From an uncultured Actinomycetota bacterium (GTDB taxonomy: Bacteria; Actinomycetota; Actinomycetes; Actinomycetales; Dermatophilaceae): a stretch of 64,000 nt of DNA. This document shows, piece after piece, positions 341 through 4,762 of this stretch (position 1 is the stretch's first letter; every line of letters begins with the position of its first letter). The stretch covers positions 255,049 to 319,048 of the forward strand of contig CAWCJA010000010.1 of NCBI GenBank assembly GCA_963795915.1, written 5' to 3'. The notes beneath the pieces are model-generated. The model ran no database searches. It worked only from the letters and a program-made list of their open reading frames with translations, and was not told where the DNA came from. Made by a program: the position numbers and the translations under genes.

Positions 341-2929
341 TCAGGCGGACGCCGCTCCGCCGGAGTCCTGCGGGCCGGGGGTCGCGGCCCCCGGCGCGCC
401 GACGGTGTCGACGGGCGGGGTGTCGGGGATCTCCGGCAGGGTCTCCTCGCGCTTGGACCCGGCGAAGGTGAACGCCGCGTCCTTCCAGCTCTCGCCGTCG
501 AAACCGGTGGCGTCGACGAGCACGAACTCACCCGGCTTCAGCTCGCCGTAGAGGATCTTCTCGGACAGCACGTCCTCGATCTCGCGCTGGATGGTGCGGC
601 GCAGCGGCCGGGCCCCCAGCACGGGGTCGTAGCCCTTCTTGGCGAGCAGGTTCTTGGCCGCGGTCGTGAGCTCCATGCCCATGTCCTTGTCCTTGAGCCG
701 CACGTCGAGCTTGGCGATCTCCAGGTCGACGATCGAGACGATCTCCGACTGCGTGAGCTGCGGGAAGACGATCGTGTCGTCGACGCGGTTGAGGAACTCG
801 GGGCGGAAGTGCTGCTTGAGCTCGTCCGTGACCTTGTTCTTCATCCGCTCGTAGTCGCTGCGTGAGTCGGGACCGGAGGAGAAGCCCAGGGTGCCCTTGG
901 TGATGTCACGCGTACCGAGGTTGGTCGTCATGATGATGACGGTGTTCTTGAAGTCGACCATCCGGCCCTGGGAGTCGGTGAGCCGGCCGTCCTCGAGCAC
1001 CTGCAACAGCGTGTTGAAGATGTCGGGGTGGGCCTTCTCGACCTCGTCGAAGAGCACGACCGAGAACGGCTTGCGCCGCACCTTCTCGGTCAGCTGGCCG
1101 CCCTCCTCGTAGCCGATGTAGCCGGGAGGCGAGCCGAACAGCCGCGAGACGGTGTGCTTCTCGGAGTACTCGGACATGTCGAGCTGGATGAGGCTGTCCT
1201 CGTCGCCGAAGAGGAACTCCGCGAGCGTCTTGGCCAGCTCGGTCTTCCCGACGCCGGTGGGGCCGGCGAAGATGAACGAGCCGCCGGGACGGCGGGGGTC
1301 CTTGAGGCCGGCGCGGGTGCGGCGGATCGCCTGGGACAGCGCCCGGATGGCGTCGTCCATGCCGACGATGCGCTTGTGGAGCTCGGCCTCCATGTTGAGC
1401 AGGCGGCTGGACTCCTCCTCGGTCAGCTTGAAGACCGGGATGCCGGTGCTGGCCGCGAGGACCTCGGCGATGATCTCCTCGTCGACCTCGGCGACGACGT
1501 CCATGTCACCGGACTTCCACTGCGCCTCACGCTCCGCGCGCTGCTGCGACAGCTGCTTCTCGTCGTCGCGCAGACGGGCGGCCTTCTCGAAGTCCTGGCC
1601 GTCGATGGCGGCCTCCTTCTGGCGCCGCACGGTGGCGATCTTGTCGTCGTACTCGCGCAGGTCCGGCGGAGCCGTCATCCGACGGATGCGCAGTCGCGCG
1701 CCCGCCTCGTCGATGAGGTCGATGGCCTTGTCGGGCAGGAAGCGGTCGTTGATGTAGCGGTCGGCCAGGTTGGCCGCGCTCACCAGCGCCGCGTCCGTGA
1801 TGGAGACGCGGTGGTGCGCCTCGTAGCGGTCGCGCAGGCCCTTGAGGATCTCGATGGCGTGGGCCAGCGTCGGCTCGGCCACCTGGATCGGCTGGAACCG
1901 GCGCTCGAGGGCCGAGTCCTTCTCGATGTGCTTGCGGTACTCGTCGAGGGTGGTCGCCCCGATGGTCTGGAGCTCACCACGGGCCAGCATCGGCTTGAGG
2001 ATGCTCGCCGCGTCGATGGCGCCCTCGGCCGCACCGGCACCGACGAGGGTGTGGATCTCGTCGATGAAGATGATGATGTCGCCGCGGGTGCGGATCTCCT
2101 TGAGGACCTTCTTCAGGCGCTCCTCGAAGTCACCGCGGTAGCGGCTGCCGGCGACGAGCGCACCGAGGTCGAGCGTGTAGAGCTGCTTGTCCTTGAGCGT
2201 CTCAGGCACCTGGCCGCGGACGATGTCCTGGGCGAGCCCCTCGACGACGGCGGTCTTGCCCACGCCGGGCTCCCCGATGAGCACGGGGTTGTTCTTCGTG
2301 CGGCGCGACAGGACCTGCATGACGCGCTCGATCTCTTTCTCGCGCCCGATGACCGGGTCGAGCTTGCCCTCTCGCGCCGCCTGGGTGAGGTTGCGGCCGA
2401 ACTGGTCGAGCACGAGGGACCCCGCGGGGGTGCCCTCCGCCTGGCCCTGGCCCTGGCCGACGCCCGCGCCGGCCTTCTCGCCCTGGCCGCCCTGGTAGCC
2501 CGCGAGCAGCTGGATGACCTGCTGGCGCACCTTGTTGAGGTCGGCGCCGAGCTTGACGAGGACCTGGGCGGCGACGCCCTCACCCTCGCGGATGAGGCCG
2601 AGCAGGATGTGCTCGGTCCCGATGTACGTGTGGCCGAGCTGCAGACCCTCGCGCAGCGAGTACTCGAGGACCTTCTTCGCGCGCGGCGTGAAGGGGATGT
2701 GGCCGGTGGGGGCCTGCTGCCCCTGGCCGATGATCTCCTGGACCTGCTCCCTGACGGCGACGAGCGAGATGTCGAGGTTCTCGAGCGCCTTGGCGGCGAG
2801 ACCTTCGCCTTCGTGGATGAGCCCCAGCAGGATGTGCTCGGTGCCGATGTAGTTGTGGTTGAGCATGCGCGCCTCTTCCTGCGCAAGCACCACGACCCGT
2901 CGAGCCCGATCGGTGAATCGTTCGAACAT
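341..2929 (-). CDS. clpC1: ATP-dependent Clp protease ATP-binding subunit ClpC1
   Basis: [22 protein letters not shown]-terminus, two Walker A motifs ([16 protein letters not shown]), UVR-like middle domain; GGAG RBS upstream of ATG at 2929. Confidence 0.98.
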
Positions 2930-3033
2930 CGCCAAAGCTCCCTACCTGTGTCGAGACAACCCGATGGTATGCGAGGTGTCTGTGCGAGCCCCACGGCTTC
3001 GTGTTCGGAGAAGCCACGGGTCTGCGATGGGTC

Positions 3034-3060
3034 CAACTCCCGGGGTGGCTGTGCTGTTCC
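3034..3060 (-). promoter_or_regulatory. SigH/SigR-type ECF promoter for clpC1
   Basis: Minus strand reads GGAAC-N18-GTTG, matching the recalled SigH/sigmaR consensus GGAAY-N18-GTT; clpC is a typical member of that regulon. Confidence 0.7.
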
Positions 3061-3087
3061 TGCGTTGAGTCGGGTGGGCGCAAGTTT

Positions 3088-3271
3088 CGCCGCAGGCGAA
3101 CAGAGTCGTGGCGCCGGAGGCGAACAGAGTCGTGGCGCCGCAGGCGAACAGAGTCCTGGCGCCGCAGGCGAACAGAGTCCTGGCGCCGCAGGCGAACAGA
3201 GTCGTGGCGCCGGAGGCGAACAGAGTCGTGGCGCCGGAGGCGAACAGAGTCGTGGCGCCGGAGGCGAACAG
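3088..3271 (-). repeat. 24-bp tandem repeat, about 7.7 units, each containing a ClgR-type box
   Basis: Unit GCGCCG(C/G)AGGCGAACAGAGTC(G/C)TG; full units start at 3111, 3135, 3159, 3183, 3207, 3231, with partial units at both ends; minus strand of every unit contains GTTCGC-N5-GCG. Confidence 0.95.
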
Positions 3272-3273
3272 GC

Positions 3274-3543
3274 TCACGTCCGGTCCTGGGGGGTCCACGC
3301 CTCGCGACGCCGGAAGAGCGGGAAAGCGTTGAACGTGCCGCCGGGGTCGGCGGTCGTCGTCCAGCGGTCCAGGACCCACCCGGCCTGCTCCACGGCGTCC
3401 ACGCTGTCCATCCACGCGGTCAGCTGCCCGACCCCGGTGCCCCAGGCCCCGAGCTTGAACCGTGCGACGAACGTGGGCCGGCCTTGCTGGTATGCCGCCT
3501 GAGCCTGCGCATACAGCGCCTTGAGGTCGGACTCCGTGCTCAT
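3274..3543 (-). CDS. Small hypothetical protein (89 aa)
   Basis: ATG with GAGGT upstream, balanced non-shadow composition, stop abuts the repeat array. Confidence 0.6.
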   Translation of the reverse strand: MSTESDLKALYAQAQAAYQQGRPTFVARFKLGAWGTGVGQLTAWMDSVDAVEQAGWVLDRWTTTADPGGTFNAFPLFRRREAWTPQDRT

Positions 3544-3561
3544 ACCTCAGGCTAGACGCCC

Positions 3562-3609
3562 CGGAGTGGTGCTCAGCGCGCGCCCTTCCGAGCAGCGAGC
3601 ACCACTCCG
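3562..3609. repeat. REP-like hairpin, left flank of DUF559 gene
   Basis: CGGAGTGGTGCTC...GAGCACCACTCCG 13-bp inverted repeat; homologous to 4669-4714. Confidence 0.7.
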
Positions 3610-3634
3610 CTGGCGTTCACCCCGGAGTCGGGCA

Positions 3635-4564
3635 TCAACCGACGCGGCGGATGGTGAGCGCAGAGTAGGCCCGGCAGACCTGCGCCATGAACGCGTCCGG
3701 CTGGAGCCGCAGCCCGACGAGGTCGATCCGGAGCACCGTTCCCCCGTCGAGGACGACGGCGTTCTGCCGCAGGTTGTCGTCCATCACGGCCAGCCCGGAG
3801 CGGTGGCCAGACCCGTCGATCTCGACGACCAGGCCGACGTCGGACCAGCAGACGTCGAGATAGATGCGACCGGTGGGGGTCGTGCGCACGAGCTGGCGGT
3901 CCGGGACGGGCAACCCGTGGCGCCGGCACAGCGAGGCGAAGTCCAGCTCACCGAGCGACTGCGCACCCGCCGCGACGTCGGCGGCCAGGAGCAGGATCAG
4001 GGCGCGCCGACTCCGCACGGGCACCGCCGAGGCCGCGACGAGCAGCTGACCCGCCGTGACGACACGTTGCTGGACGACGAGGGCGAGGACCAGCGCGGCC
4101 TGCCGGTCGGAGACGGCCCAGGACGCGGCGCGGATGGCGGCGGTGGCCGGCCGGACGCGAGGTATGCCGGCTACGGCCAGCTCCCCGGGACCTCGCTCGA
4201 TCCGGTGGATCCGCACGCCGGACACGCGGCGGGGGTGGACGGCGCGCGGCACCGAGACGTGCTCGACCGCCTCACCGAACCCCGTGACGCCGGCCGCCTG
4301 CAGCGCGCTGACGCCGTCGAGGACGGCGGCGCCGGCCCCCACCTCCCAGATCGACCGCCACCGCCGGGCGACGTCACCCAGGGCCACGGTGTGCACGGCC
4401 ACCGTCTCGTGACCGTGACGCCGCCACCGGCCGGCCGCGACCTCACGGGCCAGCGCGTTGCGGTCCACGCCCAGCTCGCGGAGCAGACGCCGGGAGAGGA
4501 CGCCGCCATAGTCGTCCGCGGCGAGGGCGGCCCGCTCGCGTCGCGCCCGGGCCACAGCGGTCAT
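3635..4564 (-). CDS. AbiEi-like N-terminal / DUF559 (Vsr-like endonuclease fold) protein
   Basis: N-terminal GGVLSRRLLRELG...GRWRR; C-terminal YLDVCW...LVVEIDGSGH...RQN...VLRI, typical of this actinobacterial family. Confidence 0.75.
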   Translation of the reverse strand: MTAVARARRERAALAADDYGGVLSRRLLRELGVDRNALAREVAAGRWRRHGHETVAVHTVALGDVARRWRSIWEVGAGAAVLDGVSALQAAGVTGFGEAVEHVSVPRAVHPRRVSGVRIHRIERGPGELAVAGIPRVRPATAAIRAASWAVSDRQAALVLALVVQQRVVTAGQLLVAASAVPVRSRRALILLLAADVAAGAQSLGELDFASLCRRHGLPVPDRQLVRTTPTGRIYLDVCWSDVGLVVEIDGSGHRSGLAVMDDNLRQNAVVLDGGTVLRIDLVGLRLQPDAFMAQVCRAYSALTIRRVG

Positions 4565-4668
4565 GACGTGACGCTGACACACGCGACGGTCCCGGGCGAG
4601 AGCGGGCTGCGCCTCTGTGGACGACGGGACGACGCGGTCAGGGGATGGGGATCCCGAGCGCAGCGCCG

Positions 4669-4714
4669 GGAGTGGTGTCGGCTGCTCGTCGTCAGGTGCG
4701 CTCGGCACCATTCC
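4669..4714. repeat. REP-like hairpin, right flank of DUF559 gene
   Basis: GGAGTGGTGTCG...CGGCACCATTCC; its reverse complement matches 3563-3608 at 32/46 positions without gaps. Confidence 0.65.
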
Positions 4715-4762
4715 GACCATGACGGCCAGGGCCCGGCGGGCTCGACGACGACGACGGGTCGG

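What the first reader, a model, noticed from the sequence alone, without database searches (positions are those of the whole stretch)
3088..3271. Tandem array of eight ClgR-type operators upstream of clpC1
Seen: a 24-bp unit repeated about 7.7 times fills the gap between a small ORF and the clpC1 promoter. On the clpC1 strand each unit contains GTTCGC-CT(G/C)CG-GCG, with boxes at 3088, 3112, 3136, 3160, 3184, 3208, 3232 and 3256. The promoter-proximal copy continues as GCGAAAC (near-palindromic) and lies 27 bp upstream of a GGAAC-N18-GTT promoter. Established (recalled): GTTCGC-N5-GCG is the Streptomyces ClgR consensus and clpC is a ClgR target in actinobacteria. Inference: the native operator has been amplified into a VNTR. 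This could tune clpC1 output by copy number, confer cooperativity, or act as a decoy that titrates ClgR away from clpP/lon. Two positions vary in blocks, suggesting stepwise slippage.
Basis: partly seen in the sequence, partly recalled or inferred. Interest (0 to 1): 0.8.

Follow-up and report, generated by a model that had tools for sequence, protein, structure and literature searches.

The report
Amplified ClgR operator repeat before clpC
The binding site for the stress regulator ClgR in front of the protease-chaperone gene clpC has been copied head-to-tail into a 24-bp repeat whose copy number runs from 1 to 8 among closely related uncultured actinobacteria. It is a rare natural case of a bacterial regulator's docking site turned into a variable repeat, and its effect on expression is untested.

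Summary
Window 3088-3271 is a 24-bp x 7.7 tandem array (96% identity) between a conserved 89-aa ORF and clpC. All eight GTTCGC-N5-GCG boxes sit at the stated coordinates. The proximal box lies 27 bp upstream of a genus-conserved GGAAC-N18-GTT (SigH/SigE-type) promoter.

Nearly all of the roughly 21 genus genomes whose clpC upstream region was read carry one palindromic ClgR box at this position. One clade carries arrays in the same register, with 2, 3, 4, 4, 4+1 decayed and 8 copies. One nested lineage is back to a single copy.

The genome has a clgR gene with its own box, and a single box at clpP1P2.

Only the proximal copy is a full operator (23.5 bits on a genus-trained matrix). The seven distal copies keep a perfect left half-site and the CGCC/GGCG core but end in CCA instead of AAC, and score 10.5-12.4 bits.

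Across six lineages the units differ by 52% at eight positions (central N3 and a 5-nt linker) and by 0.9% at the other sixteen. These sixteen match the 18-bp ClgR footprint, which argues for constraint.

Best reading: an operator-derived VNTR supplying auxiliary low-affinity ClgR sites.

The parts
341..2929 (-). clpC (ClpC1-type AAA+ unfoldase), ATG at 2929
   Evidence: Pfam Clp_N, AAA, AAA_lid_9, UVR, AAA_2 and ClpB_D2-small. The N-terminus [11 protein letters not shown] is conserved in 41 relatives.
2955..3015 (-). clpC 5'UTR with two hairpins (GGCTTC/GAAGCC 3015..2995; GACACC/GGTTGTC 2980..2955) around the near-invariant core CGCATACCATC (L128 and L168 each carry one substitution)
   Evidence: Genus alignment with compensatory changes in relatives. 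No Rfam match. Role unknown.
3035..3060 (-). ECF (SigH/SigR/SigE-type) promoter GGAAC-N18-GTT
   Evidence: GGAACAG and GTT are invariant while the spacer varies in 21 genus genomes. It fits the published consensus (G/T)GGAA(C/T)A-N16-(C/G)GTT (PMC3489674). No sigma-70-like promoter is found in 2850-3700. The TSS is not mapped.
3064..3084 (-). HAIR-like inverted repeat CTTGCGC-N7-ACTCAAC (possible HspR site)
   Evidence: The rest of the genus has TGAGCCG-ACC-CGGCTCA here. In the genome scan it has 2 mismatches to TTGAGT-N7-ACTCAA. The best HAIR lies upstream of clpB. Assignment is inferred.
3085..3102 (-). Proximal, full 18-bp ClgR operator TGTTCGCCTGCGGCGAAA
   Evidence: Top-scoring site of the whole genome on the genus-trained half-site matrix (23.5 bits). 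It is positionally conserved as a single box in the genus. It has one mismatch to the C. glutamicum consensus WNNWMGCYNNNRGCGWWS.
3103..3271 (-). Seven distal operator-derived units (CCAnnnnnCT-GTTCGCC-nnn-GGCG); the outermost lacks the linker
   Evidence: Each has a perfect left half-site plus the GGCG core. They score 10.5-12.4 bits. Sixteen of 24 positions are constrained across six lineages.
3274..3543 (-). Conserved 89-aa ORF of unknown function; its stop-codon flank was part of the duplicated segment
   Evidence: tblastn finds it upstream of clpC in many genus members at 60-97% identity. 26 homologues exist in the protein database and none is annotated. No Pfam or NCBIfam hit. The linker CCACGACTCT resembles the flank CGATGACTCT or TCCTGACTCT of relatives.

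Best explanation
The array is a clade-specific variable-number tandem repeat.

Origin:
- A 24-bp segment was duplicated head-to-tail. It comprised the 10 nt before the clpC ClgR operator (the stop-codon flank of the upstream ORF) plus the first 14 nt of the operator (GTTCGCC-N3-GGCG).
- Slippage or unequal exchange has since moved the copy number between 1 and 8.
- The result is one complete operator next to the promoter, plus up to seven truncated copies. Each truncated copy keeps a perfect left half-site and the core of the right one.

Proposed working (inferred):
- ClgR is an unstable XRE-type activator whose C-terminal -SAA tail marks it for Clp degradation.
- ClgR occupies the full operator about 68 bp upstream of the predicted start of a SigH-type promoter.
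- The distal copies lie 24 bp apart centre to centre. They would act as low-affinity auxiliary ClgR sites that raise local ClgR occupancy and also soak up ClgR.
- Repeat number would therefore set the gain of clpC induction and the free ClgR pool.

Shown: the array, its origin from the operator, its copy-number variation, the presence of clgR and of single boxes elsewhere, and position-specific constraint on the units.

Inferred: that ClgR binds the distal copies, and that copy number changes expression.
For: Structure and origin:
- Array and boxes as described.
- A single palindromic box, T(T/C)CGC(C/T)-N3-GGCGAA, lies 172-213 nt upstream of the clpC ATG in nearly all of the ~21 genus genomes whose clpC upstream region was read.
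- Arrays occur in only 3 of 28 genus genomes. They are absent at clp genes in 401 order-level and 401 class-level genomes.
- Further metagenome contigs of the clade carry 1, 1 plus a decayed copy, 2, 3 and 4 copies in the same register, GGCG|CCAnnnnnCT|GTTCGCC.
- Array lineages form one clade (clpC tree support 0.98; small-ORF tree).

Constraint:
- Among 19 internal units of 6 lineages, divergence is 52% at 8 positions (N3 spacer and 5-nt linker) and 0.9% at the other 16.
- At least 17 substitutions avoid all 9 literature-defined core positions (P=3e-4).
- In G010 the units differ by 62% at the free positions and 0% at the others.
- 15 of the 16 constrained positions fall inside the 18-bp ClgR site mapped by mutagenesis in M. 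tuberculosis (PMC3613350).

ClgR system:
- clgR sits downstream of cinA. Its best hits are ClgR models and structures, and its HTH is nearly identical to 5WOQ.
- It is conserved in 27 of 28 genus genomes, with a (V/I)ASAA tail and an own box.
- The clpP1P2 operator, invariant across the genus, is asymmetric like the distal units: TGTTCGCC-N3-AGCGCA.
- The genus-trained matrix ranks clpC, clgR and clpP1 as the top three sites of the genome.
- ClgR is a known activator of clpC and clpP1P2 (PMC2905415, PMC3613350).
Against: - Distal units score only 10.5-12.4 bits. They lack the T/A at outward position 6 that all 66 training half-sites have.
- The invariant CCA after GGCG is not what the ClgR consensus predicts.
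- Decay and loss occur: the outermost unit of G007 and the distal unit of L168 are mutated, and the L070-type lineage has one copy. The extra copies are therefore dispensable.
- G000's own units are 96-100% alike, meaning a recent expansion, so their conservation says little by itself.
- The 24-bp spacing is 2.3 helical turns, so neighbouring sites are not on one face of the helix.
- All carriers are uncultured MAGs or metagenome contigs. There are no expression or binding data.
- Copy number was not checked against reads.
Confidence: 0.55

Rival explanations
1. The array is a neutral or nearly neutral VNTR. It is a slippage-prone by-product of one chance duplication that happened to include most of the operator. 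Only the proximal operator works, and the distal copies are not bound in vivo and do not change expression.
For: - Copy number is labile, running 1, 2, 3, 4, 4+1 and 8 among close relatives.
- Decayed units occur in G007 and L168, and the L070-type lineage has lost the array.
- Distal units are weak matches at 10.5-12.4 bits.
- Units are homogeneous within G000, L128 and G007, which indicates recent turnover.
- Unrelated intergenic VNTRs that contain TTCGC-N5-GCG by chance exist in other actinobacteria.
Against: - In G010 the three distal units have diverged by 62% at eight positions and by 0% at sixteen.
- Across lineages the figures are 52% against 0.9%.
- Neighbouring neutral DNA, the promoter N18 spacer, differs at 2-8 of 18 positions between the same lineages.
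- Recent homogenisation cannot explain G010.
Confidence: 0.3
2. The distal units are sites for a different DNA-binding protein that recognises TGTTCGCC-N3-GGCGCCA. This could be a ClgR/PopR-like paralogue or another factor. The array would then be a composite control region rather than a ClgR array.
For: - The invariant GGCG-CCA (19 of 22 internal junctions) is not explained by the ClgR half-site preference.
- A second clpP operon exists at C10:811736-812922. In Streptomyces such an operon has its own ClgR paralogue, PopR (PMC9775585).
Against: - No second ClgR-like gene was found at E<=1e-20 in the genome.
- The published PopR site (TCTGCC-N3-GGCAGA) is different.
- The left half-site is the perfect ClgR half-site.
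- TGTTCGCC-N3-GGCGCC occurs nowhere else in the genome (7 of 7 matches are in the array). No regulon is visible for such a factor.
Confidence: 0.1
3. The array is an assembly artefact, or it is an RNA or coding element rather than a DNA operator array.
For: - All carriers are metagenome assemblies.
- Three short-read contigs break inside the array (L129-L131).
- ORFs overlap the array (2942..3415 on the minus strand, 3108..3332 on the plus strand), and 24 is a multiple of 3.
Against: - Seven independent assemblies from different samples and platforms show arrays in the same register.
- The RNA fold has z=-0.02 and there is no Rfam hit.
- Variation falls in contiguous blocks of 5 and 3 nt, not at third codon positions.
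- The flanks are a conserved ORF stop and a conserved promoter.
Confidence: 0.03

Closest known systems
ClgR operators of clpC and clpP1P2 in Corynebacterium glutamicum, Streptomyces lividans and Mycobacterium tuberculosis (Engels 2004; Bellier & Mazodier 2004; PMC2905415; PMC3613350)
   Same: - Same regulator family.
- Same target gene.
- Same 18-bp imperfect palindrome with CGC-N5-GCG core upstream of the promoter.
- clgR is autoregulated and carries a C-terminal -AA degradation tail.
- It is combined with a SigH-type promoter and a possible HspR site, as in the C. glutamicum network.
   Different: - Described operators are single sites.
- Here the operator is amplified to 2-8 head-to-tail copies with variable number.
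- The extra copies are truncated in the right half-site.
Promoter tandem-repeat copy-number variation in M. tuberculosis (dop, lpdA, cysG promoters; PMC12817950)
   Same: An actinobacterial intergenic VNTR sits directly upstream of a stress or proteostasis-related gene. Copy number differs between close relatives, and the repeat is proposed to tune expression.
   Different: - Those units are 54-58 bp and duplicate whole promoters.
- Here the unit is 24 bp and duplicates an activator binding site, while the promoter stays single.
Arrays of adjacent operators for Cro/CI-type HTH dimers (lambda OR1-OR2-OR3; recalled: 17-bp sites, 23-24 bp centre to centre)
   Same: ClgR is a Cro/C1-type (HTH_3/XRE) dimer. 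Sites of 17-18 bp are separated by 6-7 bp, giving about the same 24-bp period. That geometry allows neighbouring dimers to sit side by side.
   Different: - Lambda has three diverged sites of fixed number, and a repressor with a dedicated cooperativity domain.
- ClgR has only a short tail.
- Here the sites are near-identical direct repeats of variable number.
Titration or decoy site clusters (plasmid iterons, the datA DnaA-box cluster)
   Same: Multiple tandem sites for one protein can sequester it and set its free concentration.
   Different: Those control replication and are experimentally proven. Here titration is only a possibility, and the sites sit in a promoter region.

Membership tests
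ClgR operator | Core CGC-N5-GCG (S. lividans form GTTCGC-N5-GCG) | tested here: met
   All eight units carry GTTCGC-N5-GCG. Motif from PMC9775585 and PMC3613350.
ClgR operator | 18-bp imperfect palindrome fitting WNNWMGCYNNNRGCGWWS, i.e. both half-sites | tested here: inconclusive
   - The proximal copy has 1 mismatch and scores 23.5 bits, the best in the genome.
- The seven distal copies have 3 mismatches (WW becomes CC) and score 10.5-12.4 bits.
- clpP1 scores 18.4 and clgR scores 20.3.
ClgR operator | Located upstream of the promoter of a ClgR-regulon gene (clpC, clpP1P2, clgR) | tested here: met
   27 nt upstream of the conserved GGAAC-N18-GTT promoter of clpC.
ClgR operator | Cognate clgR gene in the genome | tested here: met
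   - clgR lies at C5:781366-781671, downstream of cinA.
- NCBIfam NF041677 scores 118.5 bits, below the strict 170 cutoff.
- PDB ClgR 5WOQ E=1.5e-25 and 3F51 E=1.9e-16.
ClgR operator | Binding by ClgR protein (EMSA or footprint) and ClgR-dependent transcription | not testable with these tools
   The organism is uncultured and no experimental data exist.
VNTR / promoter tandem-repeat copy-number variation | Head-to-tail repeat whose copy number differs between close relatives | tested here: met
   1, 2, 3, 4, 4, 4+1 and 8 copies in one clade, all in the same register.
VNTR / promoter tandem-repeat copy-number variation | Copy-number polymorphism within a population or strain (reads) | not testable with these tools
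SigH/SigR/SigE-type ECF promoter | GGAA(C/T)-N16-19-GTT with conserved elements and a variable spacer | tested here: met
   GGAAC-N18-GTT at 3060..3035. Both elements are invariant in 21 genus genomes. Consensus from PMC3489674. TSS and sigma dependence were not tested.
HAIR (HspR operator) | CTTGAGT-N7-ACTCAAG inverted repeat | tested here: inconclusive
   The window has CTTGCGC-N7-ACTCAAC, which is 2 mismatches in the 12-position scan. A better HAIR lies upstream of clpB. The genus form is TGAGC-N7-GCTCA.

The most novel reading that the evidence does not exclude
The repeat is a selected, evolvable control element. It is a row of deliberately weakened ClgR sites, with the GGCG-CCA junction kept invariant, and it works both as a local ClgR reservoir for the clpC promoter and as a sponge for this short-lived activator. 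Repeat number would then set, lineage by lineage, the gain of clpC induction relative to clpP1P2 and clgR. That would make it a natural bacterial example of a transcription-factor operator VNTR acting as a rheostat or decoy in the proteostasis regulon.
Probability: 0.3. Interest if true: 0.75.

Novelty: new variant of a known kind. Interest (0 to 1): 0.55.

Why it matters
ClgR control of Clp proteases is conserved across actinobacteria, and ClpC1/ClpP are drug targets in mycobacteria. All described ClgR operators are single sites.

This clade offers a natural allelic series: 1, 2, 3, 4 and 8 operator copies in front of the same promoter. That series can be cloned into laboratory hosts and gives a direct test of three questions:
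- How does the number of activator sites shape the gain of a stress promoter?
- Do low-affinity decoy sites buffer an unstable regulator?
- Can bacterial cis-regulatory evolution proceed by operator amplification rather than point mutation?

If the distal copies prove inert, the case still documents how a VNTR is born from an operator plus a stop-codon flank. It also shows how position-specific conservation in repeats can mislead.

Tried and rejected
- Exact-protein look-up of the window's 89-aa ORF: nothing on record. Homologues had to be used instead.
- RNA element: the array RNA folds no better than shuffles (z=-0.02). There is no Rfam family in 2850-3350.
- Sigma-70 promoter or intrinsic terminator between the small ORF and clpC: none on the clpC strand.
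- Coding repeat: rejected, because variation is in contiguous blocks and the flanks are a conserved stop and a conserved promoter.
- ClgR-box arrays elsewhere:
  - The order scan for >=3 boxes and the class scan for >=2 boxes found only unrelated VNTRs, dispersed repeats or coding sequence.
  - One 24-bp array with CGC-N5-GCGAAC in a distant genome (G641) precedes a 60-aa ORF, not a clp gene.
- Genome-wide degenerate palindrome scan: uninformative at 72% GC, with 306 hits. It was replaced by a genus-trained half-site matrix.
- Perfect palindrome at C1:18869: it lies inside an SDR gene and is a chance match.
- Original ClgR papers (PMC400634, PMC1317013): not held.
- Literature search for ClgR plus tandem repeat: nothing relevant.

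Full report
**1. The observation**

Tandem Repeats Finder reports one strong array at window 3088-3271: period 24, 7.7 copies, 96% matches, score 326. It occurs once in the 4.45-Mb, 10-contig assembly, and the window is G000:C10:255049-319048. Among arrays with period >=12 and >=4 copies it ranks third in the whole genome.

The neighbours are as follows.
- clpC lies on the minus strand, with Clp_N, two AAA modules, UVR and D2-small domains. Its ATG is at 2929 ([11 protein letters not shown]).
- A conserved 89-aa ORF ends at 3274, 2 nt from the array.

On the clpC-sense strand the unit reads CCA(C/G)GACTCT-GTTCGCC-T(G/C)C-GGCG. The promoter-proximal copy continues into GGCGAAAC and forms the palindrome GTTCGCC-TGC-GGCGAAAC. 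Twenty-seven nt after its GCG comes GGAAC-N18-GTT (3060..3035).

**2. What the surrounding control region is**

I aligned the clpC upstream regions of 21 genomes of the same genus. The conserved order is:
- one palindromic box, T(T/C)CGC(C/T)-N3-GGCGAA;
- a second inverted repeat, TGAGC-N7-GCTCA (in the window CTTGCGC-N7-ACTCAAC);
- GGAACAG-N16-(C/A)GTTG, with invariant hexamer cores and a free spacer;
- a 100-150-nt leader with two hairpins that show compensatory changes;
- the Shine-Dalgarno sequence and the ATG.

GGAAC-N18-GTT fits the published SigH/SigR consensus, (G/T)GGAA(C/T)A-N16-(C/G)GTT (PMC3489674). No sigma-70-like promoter or terminator is detected on the clpC strand.

The middle repeat resembles the HspR operator HAIR. 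The best HAIR of this genome lies just upstream of clpB.

ClgR, HspR and SigH are the three players described for clpC and clpP1P2 in C. glutamicum (Engels et al. 2004, cited). The sigma and HspR assignments here are inferences from sequence.

**3. Is there a ClgR system?**

Yes.
- Downstream of cinA lies a 101-aa HTH protein (C5:781366-781671).
- Its best NCBIfam hit is 'transcriptional regulator ClgR' at 118.5 bits, below that model's strict 170-bit cutoff.
- Its best solved-structure hits are ClgR 5WOQ (E=1.5e-25, near-identical HTH) and C. glutamicum ClgR 3F51 (E=1.9e-16).
- It is present in 27 of 28 genus genomes. It always ends in (V/I)ASAA, like the ClpP-degraded ClgR-AA of S. lividans (PMC9775585). 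In most (20 of 27) it is preceded by its own box, T(T/C)CGCC-N3-GGCGGAAC.
- clpP1P2 has one box, TGCGC(T/C)CA(G/C)GGCGAACA, invariant across the genus. It lies 12 nt upstream of a conserved GGGATTC...CGTTAGGGTC promoter-like element.

The literature supports the motif.
- GTTCGC-5N-GCG is the S. lividans motif.
- WNNWMGCYNNNRGCGWWS is the C. glutamicum consensus.
- The M. tuberculosis clpC1 probe shifted by ClgR contains GGTTCGCCGCCAGCGAAC.
- Mutagenesis shows the site is 18 bp long (PMC3613350).

**4. The array is an amplified operator with variable copy number**

A pattern scan finds two or more adjacent boxes in only 3 of 28 genus genomes: G000 with 8, G007 with 4 plus a decayed fifth, and G010 with 4. 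The two relatives are MAGs from other studies: CAVVZM01 (MFD04580.bin.2.108) and JALZBI01 (KAP bin113).

Metagenome contigs found through the promoter sequence and through homologues of the 89-aa ORF add further lineages.

| Contig or lineage | State |
|---|---|
| L169 | 4 copies |
| L128 | 3 copies |
| L132 | 2 copies |
| L168 | full operator plus a decayed distal copy |
| L170 | single copy, directly after the stop codon |
| L070/L071 and L133-L136 | single copy; sister group of G007 |

Three short-read contigs break inside the array (L129-L131).

All arrays share the period and the register GGCG|CCAnnnnnCT|GTTCGCC. The array lineages form one clade (clpC tree support 0.98; small-ORF tree). 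This points to a single origin followed by expansion, contraction and one secondary loss.

The 10-nt linker resembles the stop-codon flank of the 89-aa ORF in relatives (CGATGACTCT and TCCTGACTCT against CCACGACTCT). The founding duplication therefore copied that flank plus the operator up to GGCG. This explains why the distal copies lack the right-hand AAC.

Order-level (>=3 boxes) and class-level (>=2 boxes) scans of 401 genomes each found no comparable array at a clp gene. The other hits are unrelated VNTRs, dispersed repeats or coding sequence.

**5. Are the distal copies more than debris?**

Evidence for constraint:
- Nineteen units with an internal linker from six lineages give 13 distinct sequences. 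They vary only at linker positions 4-8, at position 3 once, and at the three central spacer positions.
- Divergence between lineages is 52% at those eight positions and 0.9% at the other sixteen.
- At least 17 substitutions avoid all nine positions fixed by the published motif (P=3e-4).
- In G010 the three distal units have diverged by 62% at the free positions and by 0% at the rest.
- The promoter spacer of the same lineages differs at 2-8 of 18 positions, so neutral sites have moved.
- The constrained stretch, TGTTCGCC-nnn-GGCGCCA, is 18 nt long. That is the size of the ClgR site, leaving a 6-bp linker.

Evidence against function:
- I trained a half-site matrix on the genus's single boxes at clpC (array clade excluded), clgR and clpP1. 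It ranks clpC proximal (23.5 bits), clgR (20.3) and clpP1 (18.4) as the three best sites of the genome.
- The same matrix gives the distal units only 10.5-12.4 bits. Their right half lacks the T/A that all 66 training half-sites have.
- The invariant CCA is therefore unexplained by ClgR preference.
- Distal units have decayed in G007 and L168, and one lineage has reverted to a single copy.
- G000's own units are 96-100% identical, which means a recent expansion.

**6. Mechanism**

Most likely (0.55), the distal copies are auxiliary low-affinity ClgR sites.
- The full operator is centred about 68 bp upstream of the predicted start. That is roughly one helical turn further than the clpP1P2 operator (about -57), so both lie on the same face. 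This rests on unmapped start sites.
- The 24-bp centre-to-centre spacing equals that of adjacent operators of lambda-type repressors (recalled, not tested). It would let XRE-type dimers sit side by side.
- More copies would raise local ClgR occupancy and also sequester this Clp-degraded activator. Repeat number would then act as a gain control.

None of this is shown.

Rivals:
- A neutral VNTR (0.3).
- Sites for another protein that recognises the CCA-bearing form (0.1).
- An artefact, an RNA element or a coding repeat (0.03). These are rejected because seven independent assemblies show the array, the RNA fold has z=-0.02, there is no Rfam hit, and the variation pattern is not codon-like.

**7. 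Comparison and novelty**

- The proximal site is an ordinary member of the ClgR operator family.
- The distal sites meet the core criterion but not the full-palindrome criterion, so I do not file them as proven operators.
- Promoter tandem-repeat copy-number variation is known in M. tuberculosis (dop, lpdA and cysG, with 54-58-bp whole-promoter units; PMC12817950).
- I found no report of an amplified ClgR operator.

The finding is a new variant of known kinds: a ClgR operator that has become a VNTR. Interest is moderate (0.55). It offers a clean natural allelic series for testing site-number effects and decoy buffering. However, it is confined to uncultured lineages and is functionally untested.

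Noticed in passing
window 3064-3084 (minus strand): A HAIR-like inverted repeat, CTTGCGC-N7-ACTCAAC, sits between the ClgR operator and the -35 element. In the rest of the genus it is a better palindrome, TGAGCCG-ACC-CGGCTCA. The best HAIR of the genome (TTGAGCGGAATAGACTCAA, G000:C10:983567) lies just upstream of clpB.
   Followed up: partly
window 2955-3015 (minus strand): The clpC leader holds two hairpins: GGCTTC/GAAGCC, and GACACC/GGTTGTC around the near-invariant core CGCATACCATC (L128 and L168 each carry one substitution). Both show compensatory changes among relatives. There is no Rfam match.
   Followed up: partly
window 3031-3062 versus relatives L005-L023: The array-bearing clade has AGTTGG at the -10 element and (A/C)GGAAC at the -35 element. 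Most of the genus has CGTTG and GGGAAC. The core ECF promoter may therefore be weaker in the same clade that amplified the operator.
   Followed up: no
own genome G000:C2:541750-541935 and relatives L099-L124: The clpP1P2 control region is strongly conserved in the genus. A single asymmetric ClgR box, TGCGC(T/C)CA(G/C)GGCGAACA, lies 12 nt upstream of GGGATTC-N17-CGTTAGGGTC.
   Followed up: yes
own genome G000:C5:781276-781671 and relatives L072-L098: ClgR ends in (V/I)ASAA in all 26 full-length genus copies read, matching the ClpP degradation tail described for S. lividans ClgR. Most copies (20 of 27) are preceded by an autoregulatory box.
   Followed up: yes
L167 (G641:C8) about 2590-2830: A distant actinomycete (10.7-Mb genome) has about 10 tandem 24-bp units, GCGCCTGAAGCGAACCCCCG(C/T)TCC. 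Each contains CGC-N5-GCGAAC. The array abuts the ribosome-binding site of a 60-aa ORF (MNTDLFLYVERV...) downstream of an ArsR-type gene. It is not at a clp gene.
   Followed up: partly
own genome G000:C5:120100-121100: A low-GC stretch holds a 25-bp x 5.5 tandem repeat and a strong ClgR-like site, CGTTGCGCCAAGAGCGAACTC (18.3 bits). It may be foreign DNA or a contaminant contig segment.
   Followed up: no
window 3635-4720 (minus strand): This 361-aa gene next to the small ORF has no Pfam or NCBIfam hit. It has a 58%-identical paralogue at G000:C5:430306. It is missing between fpg and the small ORF in contig L168, so it may be mobile.
   Followed up: no
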